Shown here: piece by piece, positions 29,758-37,074 of the stretch
Layout: every line of letters starts with the position of its first letter
Position numbering within the stretch: the first letter of the stretch is position 1
DNA from: an uncultured Gammaproteobacteria bacterium
GTDB taxonomy: Bacteria; Patescibacteriota; Microgenomatia; Woykebacterales; RBG-16-39-9b
Reading direction: 5' to 3'
NCBI GenBank assembly: GCA_964360785.1
Contig: CAYHXX010000001.1
Location: 346,907-410,906, forward strand
DNA: 64,000 nucleotides
Program-made: the position numbers and the translations under genes
The notes under the pieces: generated by a model
Database searches by the model: none
Told to the model about the DNA's origin: nothing
Seen by the model: the letters and a program-made list of their open reading frames with translations, nothing else

Positions 29758-30639
29758 TTACTCTTTTCTGACTATTGTCCAGATATTATCACTACCCAAC
29801 CCTTCTTCGGTTGCTTGCTTTAAAGTTGTTAGTAAAAACGTTATTTCTTCGAGGTCGTAAGAACTGTCAAGTTGTTTTTTAATGTATTTGCCAATCTGGT
29901 TTAATTTTTGTTGGTTGGGAAAAATTAGCAGAAGAATAGGGAATTTTCTGTCCAAGCCGCTAAATCTATGTTTCCCCCCTTCACTTTGATTAAATTTAAT
30001 ATATTGGTCTACTTTATACCTGAGAGCATATCTTGGAACACCTGGGTCAAAGAGTTGCAGAAAGTAAGTTTGAGAGCTATTGTCTTCTTGATCAGGATTA
30101 ATTAATTTTTCAAAGTAAATATCTGGAATAATTTCCTTGATCTTTTCAAAATCGTCTTCTTTGTATAAATCCATCTTTTCAGTTATCCAAAGTTCTGTTT
30201 TTGTAGCGAACTGATACTCTATGTTAGTACTTTTCTTTTGTTTTTCCTTGAGCTGGATATAGAAGTCAAAGAGGCTGATGCAGTGATCAATAAAAGTTTG
30301 GGAGGCGTGTTTATCCTCATAGAACTTTTTAATAAGCTTAAAGTCCAGTTTTTCATTATCTGCCTGGTAAGCTTCACCCTTTTCAAAACGTGCCCATAAG
30401 ATGCCGTTATTCGCCAGGTAATAGATGGCAGGTTTGGTATTTTCGAGTAGCTTGTGGGAATATATCCTGCCTAAATAACCTTTTTCCACTAAATCTTTAA
30501 GCCAGACGTTAATTCTTTTTGGATCCTTGTGGTCAAGAATCCTTTGTATTTGTTTCCGGTTAATAAACCGAAACCTGTAAACAAGATCAACTATCTCTTT
30601 TTGTTTTTCAGTTATCTCGGGACGTTCTTTGTAGTTCAT
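29758..30639 (-). CDS. Replication-relaxation family protein (winged-helix N-domain)
   Basis: N-terminus ITEKQKEIVDLVYRFRFINRKQIQRIL matches the replication-relaxation (PF13814-like) pattern. Sits beside the palindromic ori-like site. Confidence 0.45.
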   Translation of the reverse strand: MNYKERPEITEKQKEIVDLVYRFRFINRKQIQRILDHKDPKRINVWLKDLVEKGYLGRIYSHKLLENTKPAIYYLANNGILWARFEKGEAYQADNEKLDFKLIKKFYEDKHASQTFIDHCISLFDFYIQLKEKQKKSTNIEYQFATKTELWITEKMDLYKEDDFEKIKEIIPDIYFEKLINPDQEDNSSQTYFLQLFDPGVPRYALRYKVDQYIKFNQSEGGKHRFSGLDRKFPILLLIFPNQQKLNQIGKYIKKQLDSSYDLEEITFLLTTLKQATEEGLGSDNIWTIVRKE

Positions 30640-30849
30640 AAGATCATTCCAGTTTATTAATAGTTATTTAATTGGCAGATTTCTAGATTTAGGACAGGAG
30701 GTTTATTAGTTGGGCAGGGAAACTTAAAGGAGCAGAGGTTTAGGGGATTATACACATTTACTCAGCAACATTACTACTTCTCTTCCTTTTACCTTGTAAA
30801 AGGGTAAAGACCGGAAATTAAAATTCCTTTAATAAACCTAATATAAGCT

Positions 30850-30904
30850 CGTACGTAGCCACGACCCGTGTCCTAGACAGTTAGGACACAGCCCATGCGT
30901 ACGT
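30850..30904. promoter_or_regulatory. 55-bp imperfect palindrome; putative recombination/oriT/operator site
   Basis: CGTACGT-(11)-GTGTCCTA-(6)-TAGGACAC-(8)-CGTACGT. Followed by AT-rich iterons, with ATATGTATAT at 30938 and 30961. Confidence 0.45.
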
Positions 30905-30986
30905 GCGAACTATTTTTACTAATTGACAACTATACACATATGTATATATAATATATACAGATATGTATATGTAACTTGCCTAACTC

Positions 30987-31316
30987 TTGGATATGAAAGT
31001 ACTAGATTCGGAACAATTGGAAATTAGACCTAAACAACGAGAATTTAAACTCCTAGAACAACAAGATGTCTACGAAAACCTCAATCAACATCTTTCCGAA
31101 CAAGAAAAGGAACAAAGAATCATTCTCGAAGCTCGAGATATCTTAGGAGAAGCTGCGGAAAACCTAACTGATGAGCAAATTTGCAATTTAGTAAGTGAGA
31201 TTCAATATCTGGTTGATACTTGGTTAGAGGAATTTGAAACAAAGGTTTATGGGGGTAAGACCTTAAGTGAGTTACTACACCTAAATTATCATGAACACAC
31301 CGTTTCCAGCAAATAA
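30987..31316 (+). CDS. Hypothetical acidic protein upstream of and overlapping the recombinase (possible directionality/accessory factor)
   Basis: TTG start. Overlaps the recombinase start by 26 nt. No motif recognised. Confidence 0.35.
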   Translation: MDMKVLDSEQLEIRPKQREFKLLEQQDVYENLNQHLSEQEKEQRIILEARDILGEAAENLTDEQICNLVSEIQYLVDTWLEEFETKVYGGKTLSELLHLNYHEHTVSSK

Positions 31317-32838
31317 TATTTCAGAACCAAGAAAAGCTGTTATCTATATCCGAGTTTCTTCTGAGGAACAAGTAGAAAACTTTTCTTTGGGAACACAGGA
31401 GGAAATATGCCGCAGAGATGCGAAATATAAAGGTTATGAAATAGCGGAAGTATTTAAGGAAGAGGGTCGCTCAGCAAAAACTATTATTGGAAGGCCAGTG
31501 CTACTTGAAATGCTCGACTTTTGCAGAAAAAACAAGAAAGATCTTCAAGCGGTTTATGTTTACCGACTTGATAGATTATCCAGGCAAACTTCCGATTACC
31601 TAGCAATAAGAAAAAGGCTTGCCGACTATAATATCGCTATTCTTTCCGCAACTGAACCAACAGGAAATTCACCAACAGAAAAATTACTTGAAACTGTTCT
31701 GGCAAGTTTTGCTCAACACGATAATGACGTGCGAAGTGAAAGAACGAAAAACGGTATGCGAGCAAGGTTTTTATCAGGCCTGATTACAAACAAGTTAACC
31801 GCTGGGTATGTTAATCAAGGTGGCTATGCTATTAAAGATTCGGAAAAGTTTGAAACTATTAAAAAAGCTTGGGACTTAATGGCAACGGGAACAAAGAGTT
31901 TAAGAGAAATAAGAACTATTTTAAGTTGCTGGGGAGTTGAGATAAAACCGCACGCGATTCACGCAATGTTCCACAATAAGTTCTACATGGGCATATTAAG
32001 CTCTCCAAAATACCCAGAGGAGGTTCGTGGTCAGCACTCTCCTATGGTTACTGAAGAGCAGTTCTATAAAGTACAAGCAATTTTGGACGGTCGCGATACA
32101 AACAGGTTGGTTATGCCACGGAAAAGCAGAGATAACAAAGACTTTCCTCTGAGAAGGATCGTTAGATGCGGTAGATGTGGCACTCCGTTTACTGGAGCCA
32201 AAACCAAAGGGAGAAGTGAATACTATTCATATTATTTTTGTCGAAAAAGATGTGTTAATACTTCGGTGCCAGTTGAAACTTTAGACAAGTCATTAGGAAA
32301 CCTGCTCCAAATTCTTAACCCTACTGAAAACGGAATAAAACTTTACTGCAACGCCCTTATCAAAACCTACAACAAGAAAATGTTTCGACTTGAGAAAACT
32401 AAGAATGGAGCTGACGAGGAGATCAAGAAGCTTTTTGGACTCCGACAGACTTTAGTTGAAAAAAACCTAGCTGGAACTTTTTCAGATGAGATCTTTAAAG
32501 AACAGAACGCCGTTATTGAAGAAAAACTAATAGCTGCTCAAGCCTCAAAAAATGACGCTCTCATTGATAAGTACGATATCGCCGCAATTGTAGCCTTTAT
32601 CGAAACTAAACTAGCCGATATTGCCCAAACCTATTTTAGCTCGACTCTTAGCCAAGCTCGCTGCCTTCTCGGTTCGATATTTCTCTCGGGATTGAGTTGG
32701 GACTATCCTGGTTGTTCGAACCGCGGTATTAGCCCGATATATCAAGGTATTATTGATGTTGAAAGTAAGGGTGTTCCCTTTGGTGACCCCGGCGGGATTC
32801 GAACCCGCGATCTCTTGGATGAAAACCAAGTATCCTAA
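31291..32838 (+). CDS. Large serine recombinase (integrase)
   Basis: Resolvase catalytic domain AVIYIRVSSEEQ, recombinase domain and zinc ribbon CGRCGTPF...CRKRC. The ORF reads through into the tRNA-Glu gene, so the last about 19 aa are tRNA-encoded. Confidence 0.8.
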   Translation: MNTPFPANNISEPRKAVIYIRVSSEEQVENFSLGTQEEICRRDAKYKGYEIAEVFKEEGRSAKTIIGRPVLLEMLDFCRKNKKDLQAVYVYRLDRLSRQTSDYLAIRKRLADYNIAILSATEPTGNSPTEKLLETVLASFAQHDNDVRSERTKNGMRARFLSGLITNKLTAGYVNQGGYAIKDSEKFETIKKAWDLMATGTKSLREIRTILSCWGVEIKPHAIHAMFHNKFYMGILSSPKYPEEVRGQHSPMVTEEQFYKVQAILDGRDTNRLVMPRKSRDNKDFPLRRIVRCGRCGTPFTGAKTKGRSEYYSYYFCRKRCVNTSVPVETLDKSLGNLLQILNPTENGIKLYCNALIKTYNKKMFRLEKTKNGADEEIKKLFGLRQTLVEKNLAGTFSDEIFKEQNAVIEEKLIAAQASKNDALIDKYDIAAIVAFIETKLADIAQTYFSSTLSQARCLLGSIFLSGLSWDYPGCSNRGISPIYQGIIDVESKGVPFGDPGGIRTRDLLDENQVS

Positions 32839-32856
32839 CCACTAGACGACGGGGCC
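32781..32856 (-). tRNA. tRNA-Glu (anticodon UUC), CCA encoded
   Basis: Folds as a cloverleaf: acceptor GGCCCCG/CGGGGTC, anticodon stem CTTGG/CCAAG, loop TTTTCAT giving anticodon TTC, T-loop TTCGAAT. Similar to E. coli tRNA-Glu. Confidence 0.85.
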
Positions 32857-33104: not shown

Positions 33105-34055
33105 ATGCCCGAAGAAACAAACACTTCAAACCCAACTAGTCCTACATCACCGATAGGTTCTGCACCTTCAGGTTCAGTAACCGAAAGTCCGGCGCCAACT
33201 TCTCCTACAACACCAATTGACACTAGCGTAAGCCCCATACCAAACCCAATGGCTTCTCCGGCTTCAGAACCTACTGTCACCGCAGCACCAATGCCGACAA
33301 CACCAGACCCAACACTTATACCTTCCACTCCAATGGAAGCTTCGCCGGTGATGCCAACGGTTTCAACACCCGTAACTGATACCCCTGTTGGGGTATCTGC
33401 GCCAGTAACAGAAACGCCAACACCTGTTGTACCTGAACCAACATCAGCGGAAACTACCCCTGTACCAAGGGTAGATAAACCAGTCTGGGCCAATGAACAA
33501 CCAACACCACCTATGGTAACTACCCCAGAATCAGTAACACAGCCTGTTTCTGTCCCAACACCTGAACCAACAAACTCAGTACCCACCGAAACCATACCAA
33601 TCACTACACCAATCGAACCAACTCCAAACCCAATTGAGACTGTGACAACTCCAGAGCCGCCAAAAATGCCTGAAGTCCCAGCTGTAGAAACACCAGCTCC
33701 GACGCCAGCACCTGCTATGGAACCACCAACACCACCCGCTGACAGTGACAACAATGGCCCTGCCTGGCTCCGAACTGATTCTCAAGCTCCTGCAACGCCA
33801 GAACCGGCTCCGGCAACTGCAGAATCAAGACCTGATCTTTCAAACGCACCGCTGCCATGGCAAGTCCCAAGCGAACAACCTGCAGCTGGAAACACACCGG
33901 CAGCAAATGCAGGGGGAGCAGTTGCAGCAACCGCAGCTCCAGGAGTGGAAGAGCATCACGGCTTCCCAATTATGATCTTTGTTGTACTGGTAATTGCGAT
34001 TATTGTCGCGATTGGAATATTTCTCTTTGCCAACGGCTCACTACCTGGAACGTAA
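33105..34055 (+). CDS. Pro/Thr/Glu-rich low-complexity protein with C-terminal TM anchor
   Basis: Long PT-rich sequence and a terminal hydrophobic helix IMIFVVLVIAIIVAIGIFLF. The antisense Gly-rich ORF is an artefact. Confidence 0.4.
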   Translation: MPEETNTSNPTSPTSPIGSAPSGSVTESPAPTSPTTPIDTSVSPIPNPMASPASEPTVTAAPMPTTPDPTLIPSTPMEASPVMPTVSTPVTDTPVGVSAPVTETPTPVVPEPTSAETTPVPRVDKPVWANEQPTPPMVTTPESVTQPVSVPTPEPTNSVPTETIPITTPIEPTPNPIETVTTPEPPKMPEVPAVETPAPTPAPAMEPPTPPADSDNNGPAWLRTDSQAPATPEPAPATAESRPDLSNAPLPWQVPSEQPAAGNTPAANAGGAVAATAAPGVEEHHGFPIMIFVVLVIAIIVAIGIFLFANGSLPGT

Positions 34056-34738: not shown

Positions 34739-34805
34739 GAAGATACATTATCGCAGACCCAGGCAAATATAGACAAACAACTCCAACTTCCATAGAATTA
34801 AGTAG

Positions 34806-35882
34806 ATGGAATCTGCTCAAGCCTCAAATAGCGGTGAAAAGACTCTTCTGGAGATTGCTTCTCAGTTGGAAAAAGTCGAAAAAACCAGTCTCCCTCCAGA
34901 ACTAAAAGAGAATATCAAGGAAGCTCTCACCAGACTCAATCGTGCTATGCAACACGGCGTCTATCAACAAGAGTACGAACAAACCGCTCGTTATGTTGAA
35001 TGGCTGCTGGGAATTCCTTGGACAAAATCTTCCGAAGACAACCTCGACATCAAGAAAGCTAAAGAAATTCTTGATCAGAGCCACTACGGGTTAGGATCGA
35101 TAAAGAATAGAATTCTTGAATATTTATCCGTTCTAAAACTCCAACAAGACCAGGGTGAAAAAAGGATCAAGCCACACGCTAGCGTACTTTGTTTTGTTGG
35201 TCTCCCTGGTACTGGTAAAACCTCATTTGCGTCTTCAATTGCAGAAAGCTTGGGCCGGAAATTTATTCGTATTGCTATGGGAGGTGTTAGTAGCCCAATG
35301 GTCCTGCGTGGACAACCACGAGCCTTCCCCCAAGCCGAGCCTGGCGCCGTTGTCCGAAACTTGGTCCGCGCGGGGACAAAAAATCCGGTAATTTTACTCG
35401 ATGAGATCGACTCGATCGTTGGTGGTTCGGAAAGCGATGTTATGGGTGTGCTGTTGGAGCTGCTTGACCCGGAGCAAAACCAAGCATTCACGGATTATTA
35501 TGTAAATTATCCCATCGATCTCTCTGAAGCCCTCTTTGTCTGTTCTGCCAACCGTATGGGCAATATCACCTCCGCAGTTATGGATCGACTTGAGATGATC
35601 TTGATGCCGCGCTATACCGATGATGACAAAGTCCATATTGCCCGCGACTACCTATTTCCCCGCGAACTTACAAATACTGGCATCGACCAGAGCAAGATAC
35701 GGTTCACTGACGATATGTGGCCACTGATAATCAAACCGTTTGGCTATGACATCGATATTCGTAATATCCAAAGAACGCTGAATGGAATCTTGCGAAAAGT
35801 CGCCCGGAAAATTGTCGAAGATAATGTTACCCTCGTAGAAATCAACCCCACAAACTACCGCGAATATTTGCCTGAGTGGTAA
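34806..35882 (+). CDS. Lon-family AAA+ ATPase module only (no N-domain, no protease domain)
   Basis: VLCFVGLPGTGKTSFASSIAESLGRKFIRIAMGGV...ILLDEIDSI...LLELLDPEQNQAFTDYY...DRLEMI is collinear with the Lon AAA+ core. The ORF ends before any protease domain. Confidence 0.6.
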   Translation: MESAQASNSGEKTLLEIASQLEKVEKTSLPPELKENIKEALTRLNRAMQHGVYQQEYEQTARYVEWLLGIPWTKSSEDNLDIKKAKEILDQSHYGLGSIKNRILEYLSVLKLQQDQGEKRIKPHASVLCFVGLPGTGKTSFASSIAESLGRKFIRIAMGGVSSPMVLRGQPRAFPQAEPGAVVRNLVRAGTKNPVILLDEIDSIVGGSESDVMGVLLELLDPEQNQAFTDYYVNYPIDLSEALFVCSANRMGNITSAVMDRLEMILMPRYTDDDKVHIARDYLFPRELTNTGIDQSKIRFTDDMWPLIIKPFGYDIDIRNIQRTLNGILRKVARKIVEDNVTLVEINPTNYREYLPEW

Positions 35883-35906: not shown

Positions 35907-36048
35907 CAGGTTTTTCCATAAAAACCAGTTAGAATTGACATGTCAGTGCAATTTGATATAACCGTCAATTAGGTATACAGGTTTTTCCATAAAAACCAGT
36001 TAGAATTGACACATCGGTGCTATTGATATAACCATCAAGATTGAGATC
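35907..36048. repeat. Tandem direct repeat, 2 x about 71 bp (diverged)
   Basis: CAGGTTTTTCCATAAAAACCAGTTAGAATTGACA... at 35907 and 35978. The second copy encodes the C-terminus of the 35965..37074 gene. Confidence 0.6.
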
Positions 36049-37074
36049 ATATCTCTTGGTGTAATATTTCCCAGACGAATTTAACGAAGTGTTGTAAGCA
36101 GTTCCGACATACTTTGACAAAATCAATTGATCCACAGAGTCAATCTTGTTATCATTGTTGAGATCTGGTGGTCGAGAACTGGTCCCCACCCAAGATGAAC
36201 AAGATGCATATGTACCCGTCCCCATATGTATCTCAGCCGCATCACCAAAAGTGTCCCCATCAGAATCAATTTTCAGTGTTCTAGTGCTATAAGAAGTTTC
36301 TTTTTTATTGTTAGCGGTATCATAAGCAGTCACAACAATATTATACAATGTATCATCTTTTAGATTTGTTAAAAATAGTACTTCTGTTGCTGACATTGGA
36401 CTACAAGAAGTTGAAGAAGAACCTCCACCACCCCCACCGCTAGTTACATCCTTATAATATTTCGGATCGACTGAATCTGTATAACAATACGAATATCCCG
36501 AAACTCCACCAACATCGGTCGCTGACCAAATCCAAGTAATCTCGTTGGGGCCAACCTTAGCCGCTTTAATAGTGAGAATTGGTGGTGTCTTATCAACAAC
36601 AGTAAAGGCTTGGGTATTTGAAGTAGTACACCCACCAGTTAGACATGAGACTGTCCAGTAGTATGTTTTTCCTTCAGGCAATGCAGGGGGACTTGGTTTG
36701 TAATTGTTGTTGAGAAAACCGCTGTAGCCAGTGGAAGAGATATTTGAACTACCTTTAGTTACGTCTTTGTACCAAGAGCCAGCGTAGAAATTCCCATCGC
36801 CTTCTCTCAAGAAAACCCGGTATTTGGTTGTATAGCAATAACAATCCCAACGAAACGTTGGTGTGGTTGAAGTGGCACTGTAGGCTGGGGTTAGTGAAGT
36901 CGGTTTTCCAGTCGCCGCCTGAGGACTCACTTGCCTCAAGGCAATTGCGCCAAAAACTGTTACCGGAATCGCTCCAAAGATTGCGACCACTAGAATCAGG
37001 GAAAATTTGTTGAGGTGATGCCAATCATCAAGTCCTTTAAACCTTTGGCTGATTTTGTCTAGGGCAGAGTCCAT
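35965..37074 (-). CDS. Membrane-anchored surface protein with Ig/FN3-like region and C-terminal dockerin-like repeats
   Basis: N-terminal TM. Thr/Ser/Tyr-rich beta-rich middle. C-terminal repeats DLNNDNKIDSVD and DLNLDGYINSTD (dockerin/EF-hand-like). Confidence 0.5.
   Translation of the reverse strand: MDSALDKISQRFKGLDDWHHLNKFSLILVVAIFGAIPVTVFGAIALRQVSPQAATGKPTSLTPAYSATSTTPTFRWDCYCYTTKYRVFLREGDGNFYAGSWYKDVTKGSSNISSTGYSGFLNNNYKPSPPALPEGKTYYWTVSCLTGGCTTSNTQAFTVVDKTPPILTIKAAKVGPNEITWIWSATDVGGVSGYSYCYTDSVDPKYYKDVTSGGGGGGSSSTSCSPMSATEVLFLTNLKDDTLYNIVVTAYDTANNKKETSYSTRTLKIDSDGDTFGDAAEIHMGTGTYASCSSWVGTSSRPPDLNNDNKIDSVDQLILSKYVGTAYNTSLNSSGKYYTKRYDLNLDGYINSTDVSILTGFYGKTCIPN

What the first reader, a model, noticed from the sequence alone, without database searches (positions are those of the whole stretch)
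34806..35882. Lon AAA+ module encoded without N-terminal substrate domain or protease domain
The 358-aa protein is collinear with the Lon ATPase core (Walker A/B, sensor and the LDPEQN region) but ends before any Ser-Lys protease domain and starts without the Lon N-domain. It is followed by a tandem repeat and an opposite-strand gene, so it is not simply split. It may be a Lon-derived unfoldase or a decayed Lon.
Basis: seen in the sequence. Interest (0 to 1): 0.5.

Follow-up and report, generated by a model that had tools for sequence, protein, structure and literature searches.

The report
Protease-less Lon ATPase of CPR bacteria
This gene is an intact member of a large, conserved family in ultra-small (CPR/Patescibacteria) bacteria that kept only the ATP-burning motor of the Lon protease, lost the protease and the substrate-binding domain, and altered the loops that normally grip proteins, so it probably does some other ATP-driven job.

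Summary
ORF 34806..35882 (+) encodes 358 aa collinear with E. coli LonA residues ~235-585: a helical bundle, the AAA+ alpha/beta domain and the lid. It has no Lon N-domain and no S16 protease, and no downstream frame or other part of the window supplies one. It is not a decayed or locally split Lon. Over 587 relatives in CPR/Patescibacteria genomes have the same short architecture. Close relatives have the same short gene at the syntenic (uppS) position, and selection is purifying (pN 0.105, pS saturated). All six ATP-hydrolysis residues are invariant in 121/121 close homologs and in the 87 species representatives (one alignment gap). In contrast, the pore-loop-1 Tyr-hydrophobic-Gly (Tyr 73/73 in full-length LonA) and the bulky pore-loop-2 residue are lost or relaxed and replaced by a conserved acidic motif. 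No Lon protease or N-domain lies within 10 kb in 89 loci (1.43 Mb). In most of the family, but not in this window's clade, the gene sits tightly between pnp (PNPase) and rnj (RNase J). Best reading: a ring-forming, Lon-derived, non-proteolytic ATPase, with the "unfoldase" label doubtful. A genome-wide search for a trans partner could not be run. It is a new variant of a known kind and of moderate interest.

The parts
34806..35882 (+). Complete CDS (358 aa plus stop) of a stand-alone LonA-derived AAA+ ATPase
   Evidence: ORF; Pfam AAA + Lon_lid; TIGR00763 positions 257-569 only; same start and length in homologs of 84-94% identity; AF2 model pLDDT 85.4, pTM 0.79; Foldseek TM 0.75-0.85 to LonA ATPase modules
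34770..34798 (+). Promoter-like site (TAGACA-17-TAGAAT, 10/12) ending 7 nt before the ATG, with no Shine-Dalgarno in between; a possible leaderless transcript (consensus match only)
   Evidence: sequence
34845..35150 (+). N-terminal helical bundle (residues ~14-115), homologous to the helical region that precedes the AAA+ module in LonA (E. coli Lon ~235-345); this is not the Lon N substrate domain
   Evidence: Helices H15-26, H31-50, H54-69, H82-92, H97-115; alignments to LonA
35199..35222 (+). Walker A, G132-T139 (GLPGTGKT); the Lys (E. coli K362) is invariant in the family
   Evidence: 121/121 and 87/87
35307..35345 (+). Remodelled pore-loop 1, R168-G180 (RGQPRAFPQAEPG), in place of LonA RGHRRTY[IV]GA[ML]PG; the Tyr-hydrophobic-Gly is lost and a Glu (E. 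coli position 402) is newly near-invariant
35388..35411 (+). Walker B, V195-D202 (VILLDEID); D199 and E200 invariant
35412..35438 (+). Remodelled pore-loop 2 (SIVGGSESD): the bulky/aromatic residue of LonA (position 432) is a small residue, and the G-D-P of LonA is S-D-V
35550..35552 (+). Sensor-1 Asn (N249 = E. coli N473), invariant
35586..35588 (+). Arginine finger (R261 = E. coli R484), invariant; it acts in trans, which implies an oligomeric ring
   Evidence: numbering per PMC9569914
35619..35825 (+). Lon-type lid (alpha) domain, residues ~272-340, including sensor-2 R319 (nt 35760-35762 = E. coli R542)
   Evidence: Pfam Lon_lid 290-340
35868..35879 (+). Conserved extreme C-terminus L-P-E-W, corresponding to the LonA AAA-protease linker ('DYLG...'); 46 of 88 species representatives end in [LIV]-P-x-[WY]

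Best explanation
The gene is an intact member of a single-origin, CPR/Patescibacteria-wide family of stand-alone ATPases derived from LonA. The family kept the pre-AAA helical bundle, the AAA+ alpha/beta domain and the Lon lid. It lost the N-terminal substrate domain and the S16 protease domain. SHOWN: the architecture, its conservation, purifying selection, invariance of every ATP-binding and ATP-hydrolysis residue including the trans-acting arginine finger, loss of the LonA pore-loop aromatic or bulky residues, absence of any Lon protease or N-domain within 10 kb in 89 loci, and a tight co-directional pnp-[gene]-rnj arrangement in most of the family (this window's clade instead has the gene divergent from uppS). 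INFERRED: the protein assembles into a ring, because an Arg finger only works between subunits, and hydrolyses ATP. Because its pore loops no longer carry the Tyr and bulky paddles that LonA uses to pull polypeptides, and there is no chamber to pull them into, it most likely acts as a non-proteolytic ATP-driven remodeller or chaperone-like switch rather than as a processive threading unfoldase. In most lineages its client or partner may belong to RNA turnover (PNPase, RNase J). That last step is the weakest one. My confidence is about 0.9 for identity and 'functional, not a pseudogene', about 0.45 for 'non-threading remodeller', and about 0.2 for an RNA-decay link.
For: Architecture. Family size and uniform short length: 120 best of 5152 hits are 291-408 aa, none with Lon_C; further AAA-only clusters at 39-47% identity; at least 587 genome loci; 86 of 88 complete ORFs are 316-472 aa. 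Synteny of the short gene. Purifying selection: (pN 0.105 against pS 0.84). ATPase residues K362, D423, E424, N473, R484 and R542 are invariant in 121/121 close homologs; in 87 species representatives five are 87/87 and R542 is 86/87 with one alignment gap. Pore loops: LonA control has Y398 73/73, [VILM]399 and G400 72/73; the family has F17/H17/L11/R10/Y8 and others, P399, D/E400 and E402 85/87. At PL2 position 432 LonA has F/Y/W/I/V/L and the family has A/G/S/T. PMC8503904 shows that PL1 Tyr397 and PL2 Trp431 contact the substrate and are required for degradation. No Lon_C or Lon N: 0 hits at E<=1 in 1.43 Mb, with exactly one AAA hit per locus as a positive control. Single clade: an NJ bipartition holds 98 short sequences and 0 LonA, and the E402 signature is shared. 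Context: pnp upstream in 42/58, rnj downstream in 54/64, at least one of them in 48/51. CPR retains only rnj, rnc and pnp as core RNases (PMC12641178).
Against: No genome-wide search for a trans-encoded protease was possible, so a distant partner is not excluded. The query itself keeps an aromatic residue (Phe174) at the pore-loop-1 position, as do 87 of 121 close homologs (Y67 + F20), so some threading ability may survive in this clade. The pnp/rnj association is absent from the window's own clade. It may also reflect inherited gene order rather than function: from memory, Bacillus subtilis also has rpsO-pnpA ... rnjB ... ftsK in one region. No ring assembly, ATPase activity or expression was tested. 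The NJ tree has no support values and no LonB/LonC outgroup.
Confidence: 0.6

Rival explanations
1. Stand-alone threading unfoldase or disaggregase. The ring still pulls polypeptides through its pore using the residual aromatic or hydrophobic pore-loop residue, and acts as a chaperone without proteolysis.
For: The query has Phe at the pore-loop-1 position. In the close clade this position is Y/F in 87 of 121 and hydrophobic in 113 of 121. The ATPase machinery is fully intact. The fold is the LonA motor.
Against: Across 87 species representatives only 25 have F/Y at this position, and many have H, R, Q, S, N or K. The next two residues, hydrophobic-Gly in LonA (all 73 hydrophobic, Gly 72/73), are Pro and Asp/Glu. 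Pore-loop 2 has lost its bulky residue in about 92%. A function conserved family-wide therefore cannot depend on the aromatic paddle.
Confidence: 0.2
2. Split Lon (two-component protease). The ATPase docks, perhaps through its conserved [LIV]-P-x-[WY] C-terminus, onto a separately encoded Lon-type or other peptidase ring located elsewhere in the genome, as HslU does with HslV and ClpX with ClpP.
For: The extreme C-terminus is conserved and ends exactly at the LonA ATPase-protease linker. Other AAA+ unfoldases use C-terminal tails or loops to dock onto peptidases (established knowledge of HslUV and proteasomal HbYX motifs, recalled and not tested here).
Against: No Lon protease-domain homolog lies within 10 kb in 89 loci, and no peptidase is among the recurrent neighbours. 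The pore loops needed to feed a chamber are degenerate. The nearest full-length LonAs are non-CPR and only about 43% identical. Only 46 of 88 representatives keep the terminal aromatic residue.
Confidence: 0.1
3. Decayed Lon, pseudogene or assembly artefact in this genome.
For: Only the domain truncation itself, and the sub-threshold score against the Lon equivalog model.
Against: The same length and the same ends occur in hundreds of independent assemblies. The short gene is syntenic in relatives. Catalytic residues are invariant. pN 0.105 against saturated pS. There are no protease remnants in any frame.
Confidence: 0.02

Closest known systems
LonA protease (endopeptidase La; MEROPS S16; TIGR00763), e.g. 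E. coli Lon, Thermus and Meiothermus LonA, human LONP1
   Same: Collinear and ~35-44% identical over the pre-AAA helical bundle, the AAA+ alpha/beta domain and the Lon lid. Same Walker A/B, LDPEQN region, sensor-1, Arg finger and sensor-2. Predicted fold superposes with TM 0.75-0.85.
   Different: No N-terminal substrate-binding domain and no Ser-Lys protease domain. Pore-loop-1 Y-hydrophobic-G is replaced by x-P-[DE]-A-E. Pore-loop-2 has lost its bulky residue and the G-D-P. The genomic context is different: not tig-clpP-clpX-lon, but pnp/rnj or uppS.
LonC (e.g. Meiothermus taiwanensis LonC), the Lon-like protease with no ATP-powered unfolding
   Same: A Lon relative that has given up half of the coupled ATPase-protease machine (PMC3391209 and PMC13069640, listed).
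   Different: The opposite outcome. LonC keeps the protease and has an inactive AAA-like domain. This family keeps a fully equipped ATPase and has no protease.
Partner-dependent HCLR-clade unfoldases (HslU, ClpX)
   Same: An AAA+ motor of the same clade encoded without a protease domain in the same chain, with a conserved C-terminal tail that could in principle be a docking element.
   Different: HslU and ClpX keep aromatic pore-loop paddles and have known, usually adjacent, peptidase partners. Neither is true here.
Isolated Lon AAA+ or alpha-domain fragments studied in vitro (PDB 6N2I, 4GIT, 1X37)
   Same: Same boundaries as laboratory constructs of the Lon ATPase module. 6N2I (338 residues) matches with TM 0.82-0.86.
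   Different: Those are engineered fragments of full-length proteases. This is a natural, conserved gene.

Membership tests
LonA protease (TIGR00763 / MEROPS S16) | N-terminal LON substrate-binding domain (PF02190) | tested here: not met
   No Pfam hit. The LonN profile HMM gives 0 hits in the window and in 88 related loci.
LonA protease (TIGR00763 / MEROPS S16) | C-terminal S16 proteolytic domain with a Ser-Lys dyad (PF05362) | tested here: not met
   No Pfam hit. The ORF ends at the AAA-protease linker. Nothing in the downstream frames. The LonP HMM gives 0 hits at E<=1. PMC9569914 states that all Lon proteases have an A domain followed by a P domain.
LonA protease (TIGR00763 / MEROPS S16) | Whole-protein score above the curated equivalog cutoff | tested here: not met
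   346.8 bits against a cutoff of 608.05 (TIGR00763), and 233.2 against 891 (NF008053).
LonA protease (TIGR00763 / MEROPS S16) | Lon-type AAA+ module with Lon lid | tested here: met
   Pfam AAA + Lon_lid; collinear alignments; fold match.
LonA protease (TIGR00763 / MEROPS S16) | Pore-loop-1 Tyr-hydrophobic-Gly and a bulky pore-loop-2 residue used for substrate translocation | tested here: not met
   The query has F-P-Q and a small PL2 residue. Tyr is 73/73 in LonA against F/Y in 25 of 87 in the family. Functional role per PMC8503904.
Catalytically competent AAA+ ATPase (HCLR clade) | Walker A Lys, Walker B Asp-Glu, sensor-1 Asn, trans Arg finger, sensor-2 Arg | tested here: met
   All present in the query and invariant in 121/121 close homologs. 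In 87 species representatives five are 87/87 and sensor-2 is 86/87 with one alignment gap.
Catalytically competent AAA+ ATPase (HCLR clade) | Ring (hexamer) assembly and ATP hydrolysis | not testable with these tools
   Inferred only from the conserved trans-acting Arg finger. No multimer prediction or biochemistry was available.
LonB | Membrane-anchoring insertion within the AAA+ module, plus a protease domain | tested here: not met
   The alignment to LonA is collinear with no insertion between Walker A and B. There is no protease domain.
LonC | Degenerate, ATPase-inactive AAA-like domain plus an active protease domain | tested here: not met
   The Walker and sensor residues are intact and there is no protease domain.
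Two-component AAA+ protease (HslUV / ClpXP type) | A dedicated, co-occurring peptidase partner | tested here: inconclusive
   None within 10 kb in 89 loci, and none among the recurrent neighbours. Whole genomes could not be searched.
Known anti-phage defence ATPases (PADLOC) | Significant match to a defence-system model | tested here: not met
   Only weak generic P-loop matches, at best 9.9e-08 and 29.6 bits to DolB.

The most novel reading that the evidence does not exclude
Many CPR/Patescibacteria lineages have replaced the Lon protease with a non-proteolytic Lon-derived AAA+ ring. That ring would be a dedicated component of a minimal RNA-decay machine, co-transcribed and working with PNPase and RNase J. 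It would take the ATP-dependent remodelling role that DEAD-box helicases play in other degradosomes, or regulate these RNases. The gene in this window would be a relocated copy of that component.
Probability: 0.12. Interest if true: 0.75.

Novelty: new variant of a known kind. Interest (0 to 1): 0.45.

Why it matters
Every recognised Lon subfamily (A, B, C, BA) is defined as an ATPase fused to a protease (PMC9569914). A large natural family that keeps only the motor, with all hydrolysis residues invariant but the polypeptide-gripping loops rewritten, shows the Lon AAA+ module being reused for something other than proteolysis. It also provides a natural test of what a Lon motor does on its own. 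There is a practical consequence for annotation: JGI labels these proteins 'ATP-dependent Lon protease', so surveys may score CPR bacteria as having Lon when, on this evidence, they have only the motor. That matters for models of protein quality control in these minimal, host-dependent cells. The tight pnp-[gene]-rnj arrangement gives a concrete, testable lead in organisms that retain only three core RNases.

Tried and rejected
(1) Frameshift or adjacent split: three-frame translation downstream and upstream and Lon protease and N-domain HMMs over the window and 88 loci found nothing. (2) Full-length Lon elsewhere in the window: the 752-aa ORF is a histidine kinase and the 863-aa ORF a ribonucleotide reductase. 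(3) Longer relatives as intermediates: the P0156 C-terminal and P0154 N-terminal extensions are low-complexity S/N- or Q/P-rich tails, not degenerate protease or N domains. (4) Multi-AAA 'Lon' proteins at the top of the exhaustive search (P0121, P0124, P0125, P0129): at least P0125 is a Brassica napus gene model, so these are probably fused gene models, and I did not pursue them. (5) Defence-system role: only weak generic PADLOC hits. (6) In-place truncation of an ancestral lon at the pnp/rnj position: the three nearest full-length LonAs are non-CPR and lie in tig-clpP-clpX-lon or unrelated contexts. (7) Literature: five searches for a protease-less Lon or for Lon in CPR found nothing relevant. 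The library is partial, so this is weak evidence of novelty. (8) The downstream repeat as part of the feature: rejected, because it is a duplicated 3' end of the neighbouring dockerin gene. (9) dN/dS as a ratio could not be computed because synonymous sites are saturated, so I report pN and pS instead.

Full report
OBSERVATION. The ORF at 34806..35882 (+) is real and encodes 358 aa. Pfam finds an AAA domain (residues 128-266, 1.6e-20) and a Lon-specific lid (290-340), and nothing else Lon-related. The NCBIfam Lon equivalog TIGR00763 matches at 3e-103, but only over model positions 257-569 of 795, and the score of 346.8 bits is well under the 608 cutoff. PDB sequence searches align residues 8-339 to Thermus Lon 242-566 and residues 22-355 to human LONP1 and E. 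coli Lon. I took E. coli lon from NC_000913 as a numbered reference. Against it the protein spans roughly residues 235-585 and ends at the 'DYLG' linker that precedes the protease domain. An AlphaFold2 model built on a 40-sequence family alignment is confident (pLDDT 85.4, pTM 0.79). It superposes on LonA ATPase modules with TM 0.75-0.85. So the first ~115 residues are the helical bundle that precedes the AAA+ module in LonA, not the Lon N substrate domain.

NO HIDDEN PROTEASE. The three forward frames downstream and upstream contain no protease-like sequence. The large ORFs in the window are a histidine kinase and a ribonucleotide reductase, not Lon. Profile HMMs built from the N and protease domains of 72 full-length LonAs plus E. 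coli Lon give no hit at E<=1 in the window. The 'tandem repeat' after the gene is a two-copy direct duplication (35907-35968 and 35978-36038). Its second copy encodes the last residues of the opposite-strand dockerin-domain gene 35965..37074. The closest relative with a long contig (86% identity) has uppS-[gene]-ABC transporter and no dockerin gene. The dockerin gene and its duplicated end are therefore a local insertion unrelated to the Lon-like gene.

A CONSERVED FAMILY, NOT A PSEUDOGENE. The word-indexed search found 5152 homologs at E<=1e-10. The 120 best (52-94% identity) are 291-408 aa, carry AAA with or without Lon_lid, and never carry Lon_C. The names their sources give them are Saccharimonadales, Woykebacteria and 'Patescibacteria group'. 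The exhaustive representative search adds more divergent AAA-only clusters at 39-47% identity, for example from Dojkabacteria, and places full-length LonA at about 40% identity and 250-280 bits. Longer relatives merely carry low-complexity tails. The best 80 come from Gottesman-, Shapiro-, Levy-, Ames-, Woese-, Curtiss- and Daviesbacteria, WWE3, Dojkabacteria, Saccharibacteria and Nomurabacteria. Of 88 complete ORFs, 86 are 316-472 aa. In relatives of 86%, 71-73%, 63% and 61% identity the short gene occupies the same position as in the window, next to and divergent from uppS. Compared with the 86% relative, synonymous sites are saturated (pS 0.84) while pN is 0.105. A neighbour-joining tree of the AAA region puts all 98 short sequences on one side of a single split, with none of the 73 LonAs among them.

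WHAT IS KEPT AND WHAT IS CHANGED. Walker A Lys362, Walker B Asp423 and Glu424, sensor-1 Asn473, Arg finger Arg484 and sensor-2 Arg542 (E. coli numbering, as in PMC9569914) are invariant in 121 of 121 close homologs. In 87 species representatives five of them are 87/87 and sensor-2 is 86/87 with one alignment gap. The substrate-gripping loops behave differently. In 73 full-length LonAs pore-loop 1 is Tyr (73/73), then V/I/L/M, then Gly (72/73). In the close clade the Tyr position is Y67, F20, L15, I7, V4, R4, Q2, followed by Pro (104 of 121). Across the 87 species representatives it is F17, H17, L11, R10, Y8 and assorted polar residues. It is followed by Pro, then Asp or Glu, then Ala or Ser, and then a newly near-invariant Glu (85 of 87), where LonA has Met or Leu. 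At pore-loop-2 position 432 LonA has F/Y/W/I/V/L followed by an invariant G-D-P. The family has A/G/S/T there, and the G-D-P has become x-D-I. In Meiothermus LonA these two residues (Tyr397 and Trp431) contact the translocating substrate and are required for degradation (PMC8503904). The query itself reads RGQPRAFPQAEPG, so it keeps an aromatic residue but has lost the rest of the motif.

NO PARTNER NEARBY, AND AN UNEXPECTED NEIGHBOURHOOD. In 89 loci (1.43 Mb) the AAA HMM finds exactly one strong hit per locus, and the Lon N-domain and protease HMMs find none. Clustering the neighbours gave no recurrent peptidase. It did reveal a recurring co-directional order: DHH phosphoesterase, rpsO, pnp (PNPase), [this gene], sometimes UDG, rnj (RNase J), ftsK. 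Among the 80 members at or below about 55% identity to the query, pnp lies upstream on the same strand in 42 of 58 evaluable loci (35 within 250 bp). rnj lies downstream in 54 of 64 (27 within 250 bp, several with overlapping stop and start codons). At least one of the two is present in 48 of 51. The window's own clade (59% identity and above) has none of this and mostly has the uppS context instead. The three nearest full-length LonAs are from non-CPR bacteria and lie in tig-clpP-clpX-lon or unrelated contexts. CPR bacteria are reported to retain only rnj, rnc and pnp as core RNases (PMC12641178).

INTERPRETATION. What is shown: a single-origin, Lon-derived, protease-less and N-domain-less ATPase family under purifying selection, with an intact hydrolysis site and rewritten pore loops. 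What is inferred: ring assembly, because the conserved Arg finger acts between subunits, and ATP-driven work that does not rely on aromatic paddles pulling a polypeptide into a chamber. That points to a remodeller or switch rather than a processive unfoldase. The pnp/rnj arrangement suggests co-transcription with RNA-decay enzymes in most lineages and offers a candidate functional link. I rate that link low, at about 0.2, for three reasons. The query's clade lacks the arrangement. Compact genomes co-transcribe unrelated genes. And, from memory, Bacillus subtilis also has rpsO-pnpA, rnjB and ftsK in one chromosomal region, so the order may simply be inherited. The conserved C-terminus (LPEW here; [LIV]-P-x-[WY] in 46 of 88) corresponds to the LonA linker. 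It could be a docking tail for a partner, but that is speculation.

RIVALS. A threading unfoldase remains possible for this clade, because Phe174 and mostly hydrophobic residues occupy the paddle position. It cannot, however, be the function conserved across the family. A split Lon with a distant protease gene is not excluded, because whole genomes could not be searched. Nothing supports it beyond the conserved C-terminus. A pseudogene is excluded.

COMPARISON AND NOVELTY. The closest known family is LonA. The protein fails four of its defining features (N domain, protease domain, curated score, pore-loop motif) and so should not be filed as a Lon protease, although JGI annotation does exactly that. 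NCBI calls it 'AAA family ATPase'. It mirrors LonC, which keeps the protease and has a dead ATPase. Five literature searches found no description of such a family. The library is incomplete, so the novelty claim is modest: a new variant of a known kind. The decisive step I could not take is a genome-wide domain census in complete CPR genomes.

Noticed in passing
window 35907-35968 and 35978-36038; gene 35965..37074 (-): A ~62-nt direct duplication (spacing 71 nt) of the 3' end of a dockerin-domain gene. The copy beyond the stop codon is out of frame or untranslated. The closest relative (L093) lacks the whole dockerin gene at this position, so this is a lineage-specific insertion with a duplicated end.
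   Followed up: partly
window 29758-32856: A serine recombinase gene (31291..32838, +) whose 3' end overlaps a tRNA-Glu gene (32781..32856, -), next to a Replic_Relax-family gene (29758..30639, -) and a sharp GC change (0.525 at 28-30 kb, 0.363 at 30-32 kb). It looks like an integrated mobile element at a tRNA gene.
   Followed up: no
window 33105-34055 (+): A 316-aa Pro/Thr/Ser-rich low-complexity ORF with a C-terminal hydrophobic helix and no Pfam hit. A 314-aa Pfam-less ORF occupies the same position in L093 (8311..9255), and shorter Pfam-less ORFs occur there in L004, L005 and L007. Possibly a surface-anchored protein.
   Followed up: no
proteins P0121, P0124, P0125, P0129: Predicted 'Lon' proteins with two or three tandem Lon AAA+ modules before Lon_C topped the exhaustive search. 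P0125 is a Brassica napus gene model, so at least some are probably fused gene models rather than real multi-ring Lons.
   Followed up: partly
loci L010, L013, L016, L021, L022, L025, L074 and others: Many MAGs carrying this CPR-specific gene in a CPR-typical neighbourhood are titled 'uncultured Gammaproteobacteria' or 'Pseudomonadales' (one isolate is named HK-STAS-PATE-15), and two carry archaeal labels (L015 Bathyarchaeia; P0025 Nanoarchaeia). These look like wrong taxonomic labels on the records.
   Followed up: no
window 34770-34806: The promoter-like -10 hexamer ends 7 nt before the ATG and no Shine-Dalgarno sequence lies between them, so the mRNA may be leaderless. This is a consensus match only.
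   Followed up: no
L008 149-4155: In one distant family member the hrcA-grpE-dnaK-dnaJ heat-shock operon lies about 6 kb upstream on the same strand, followed by nusA-infB-rpsO-pnp-[Lon-AAA]. I did not check whether this recurs.
   Followed up: no
L009 4995-9017: In a 63%-identity relative the gene follows an aspartate kinase-dapB-dapA-asd cluster. From memory, the same genes lie between pnpA and rnjB in Bacillus subtilis, which hints that the whole region is an old synteny block.
   Followed up: no
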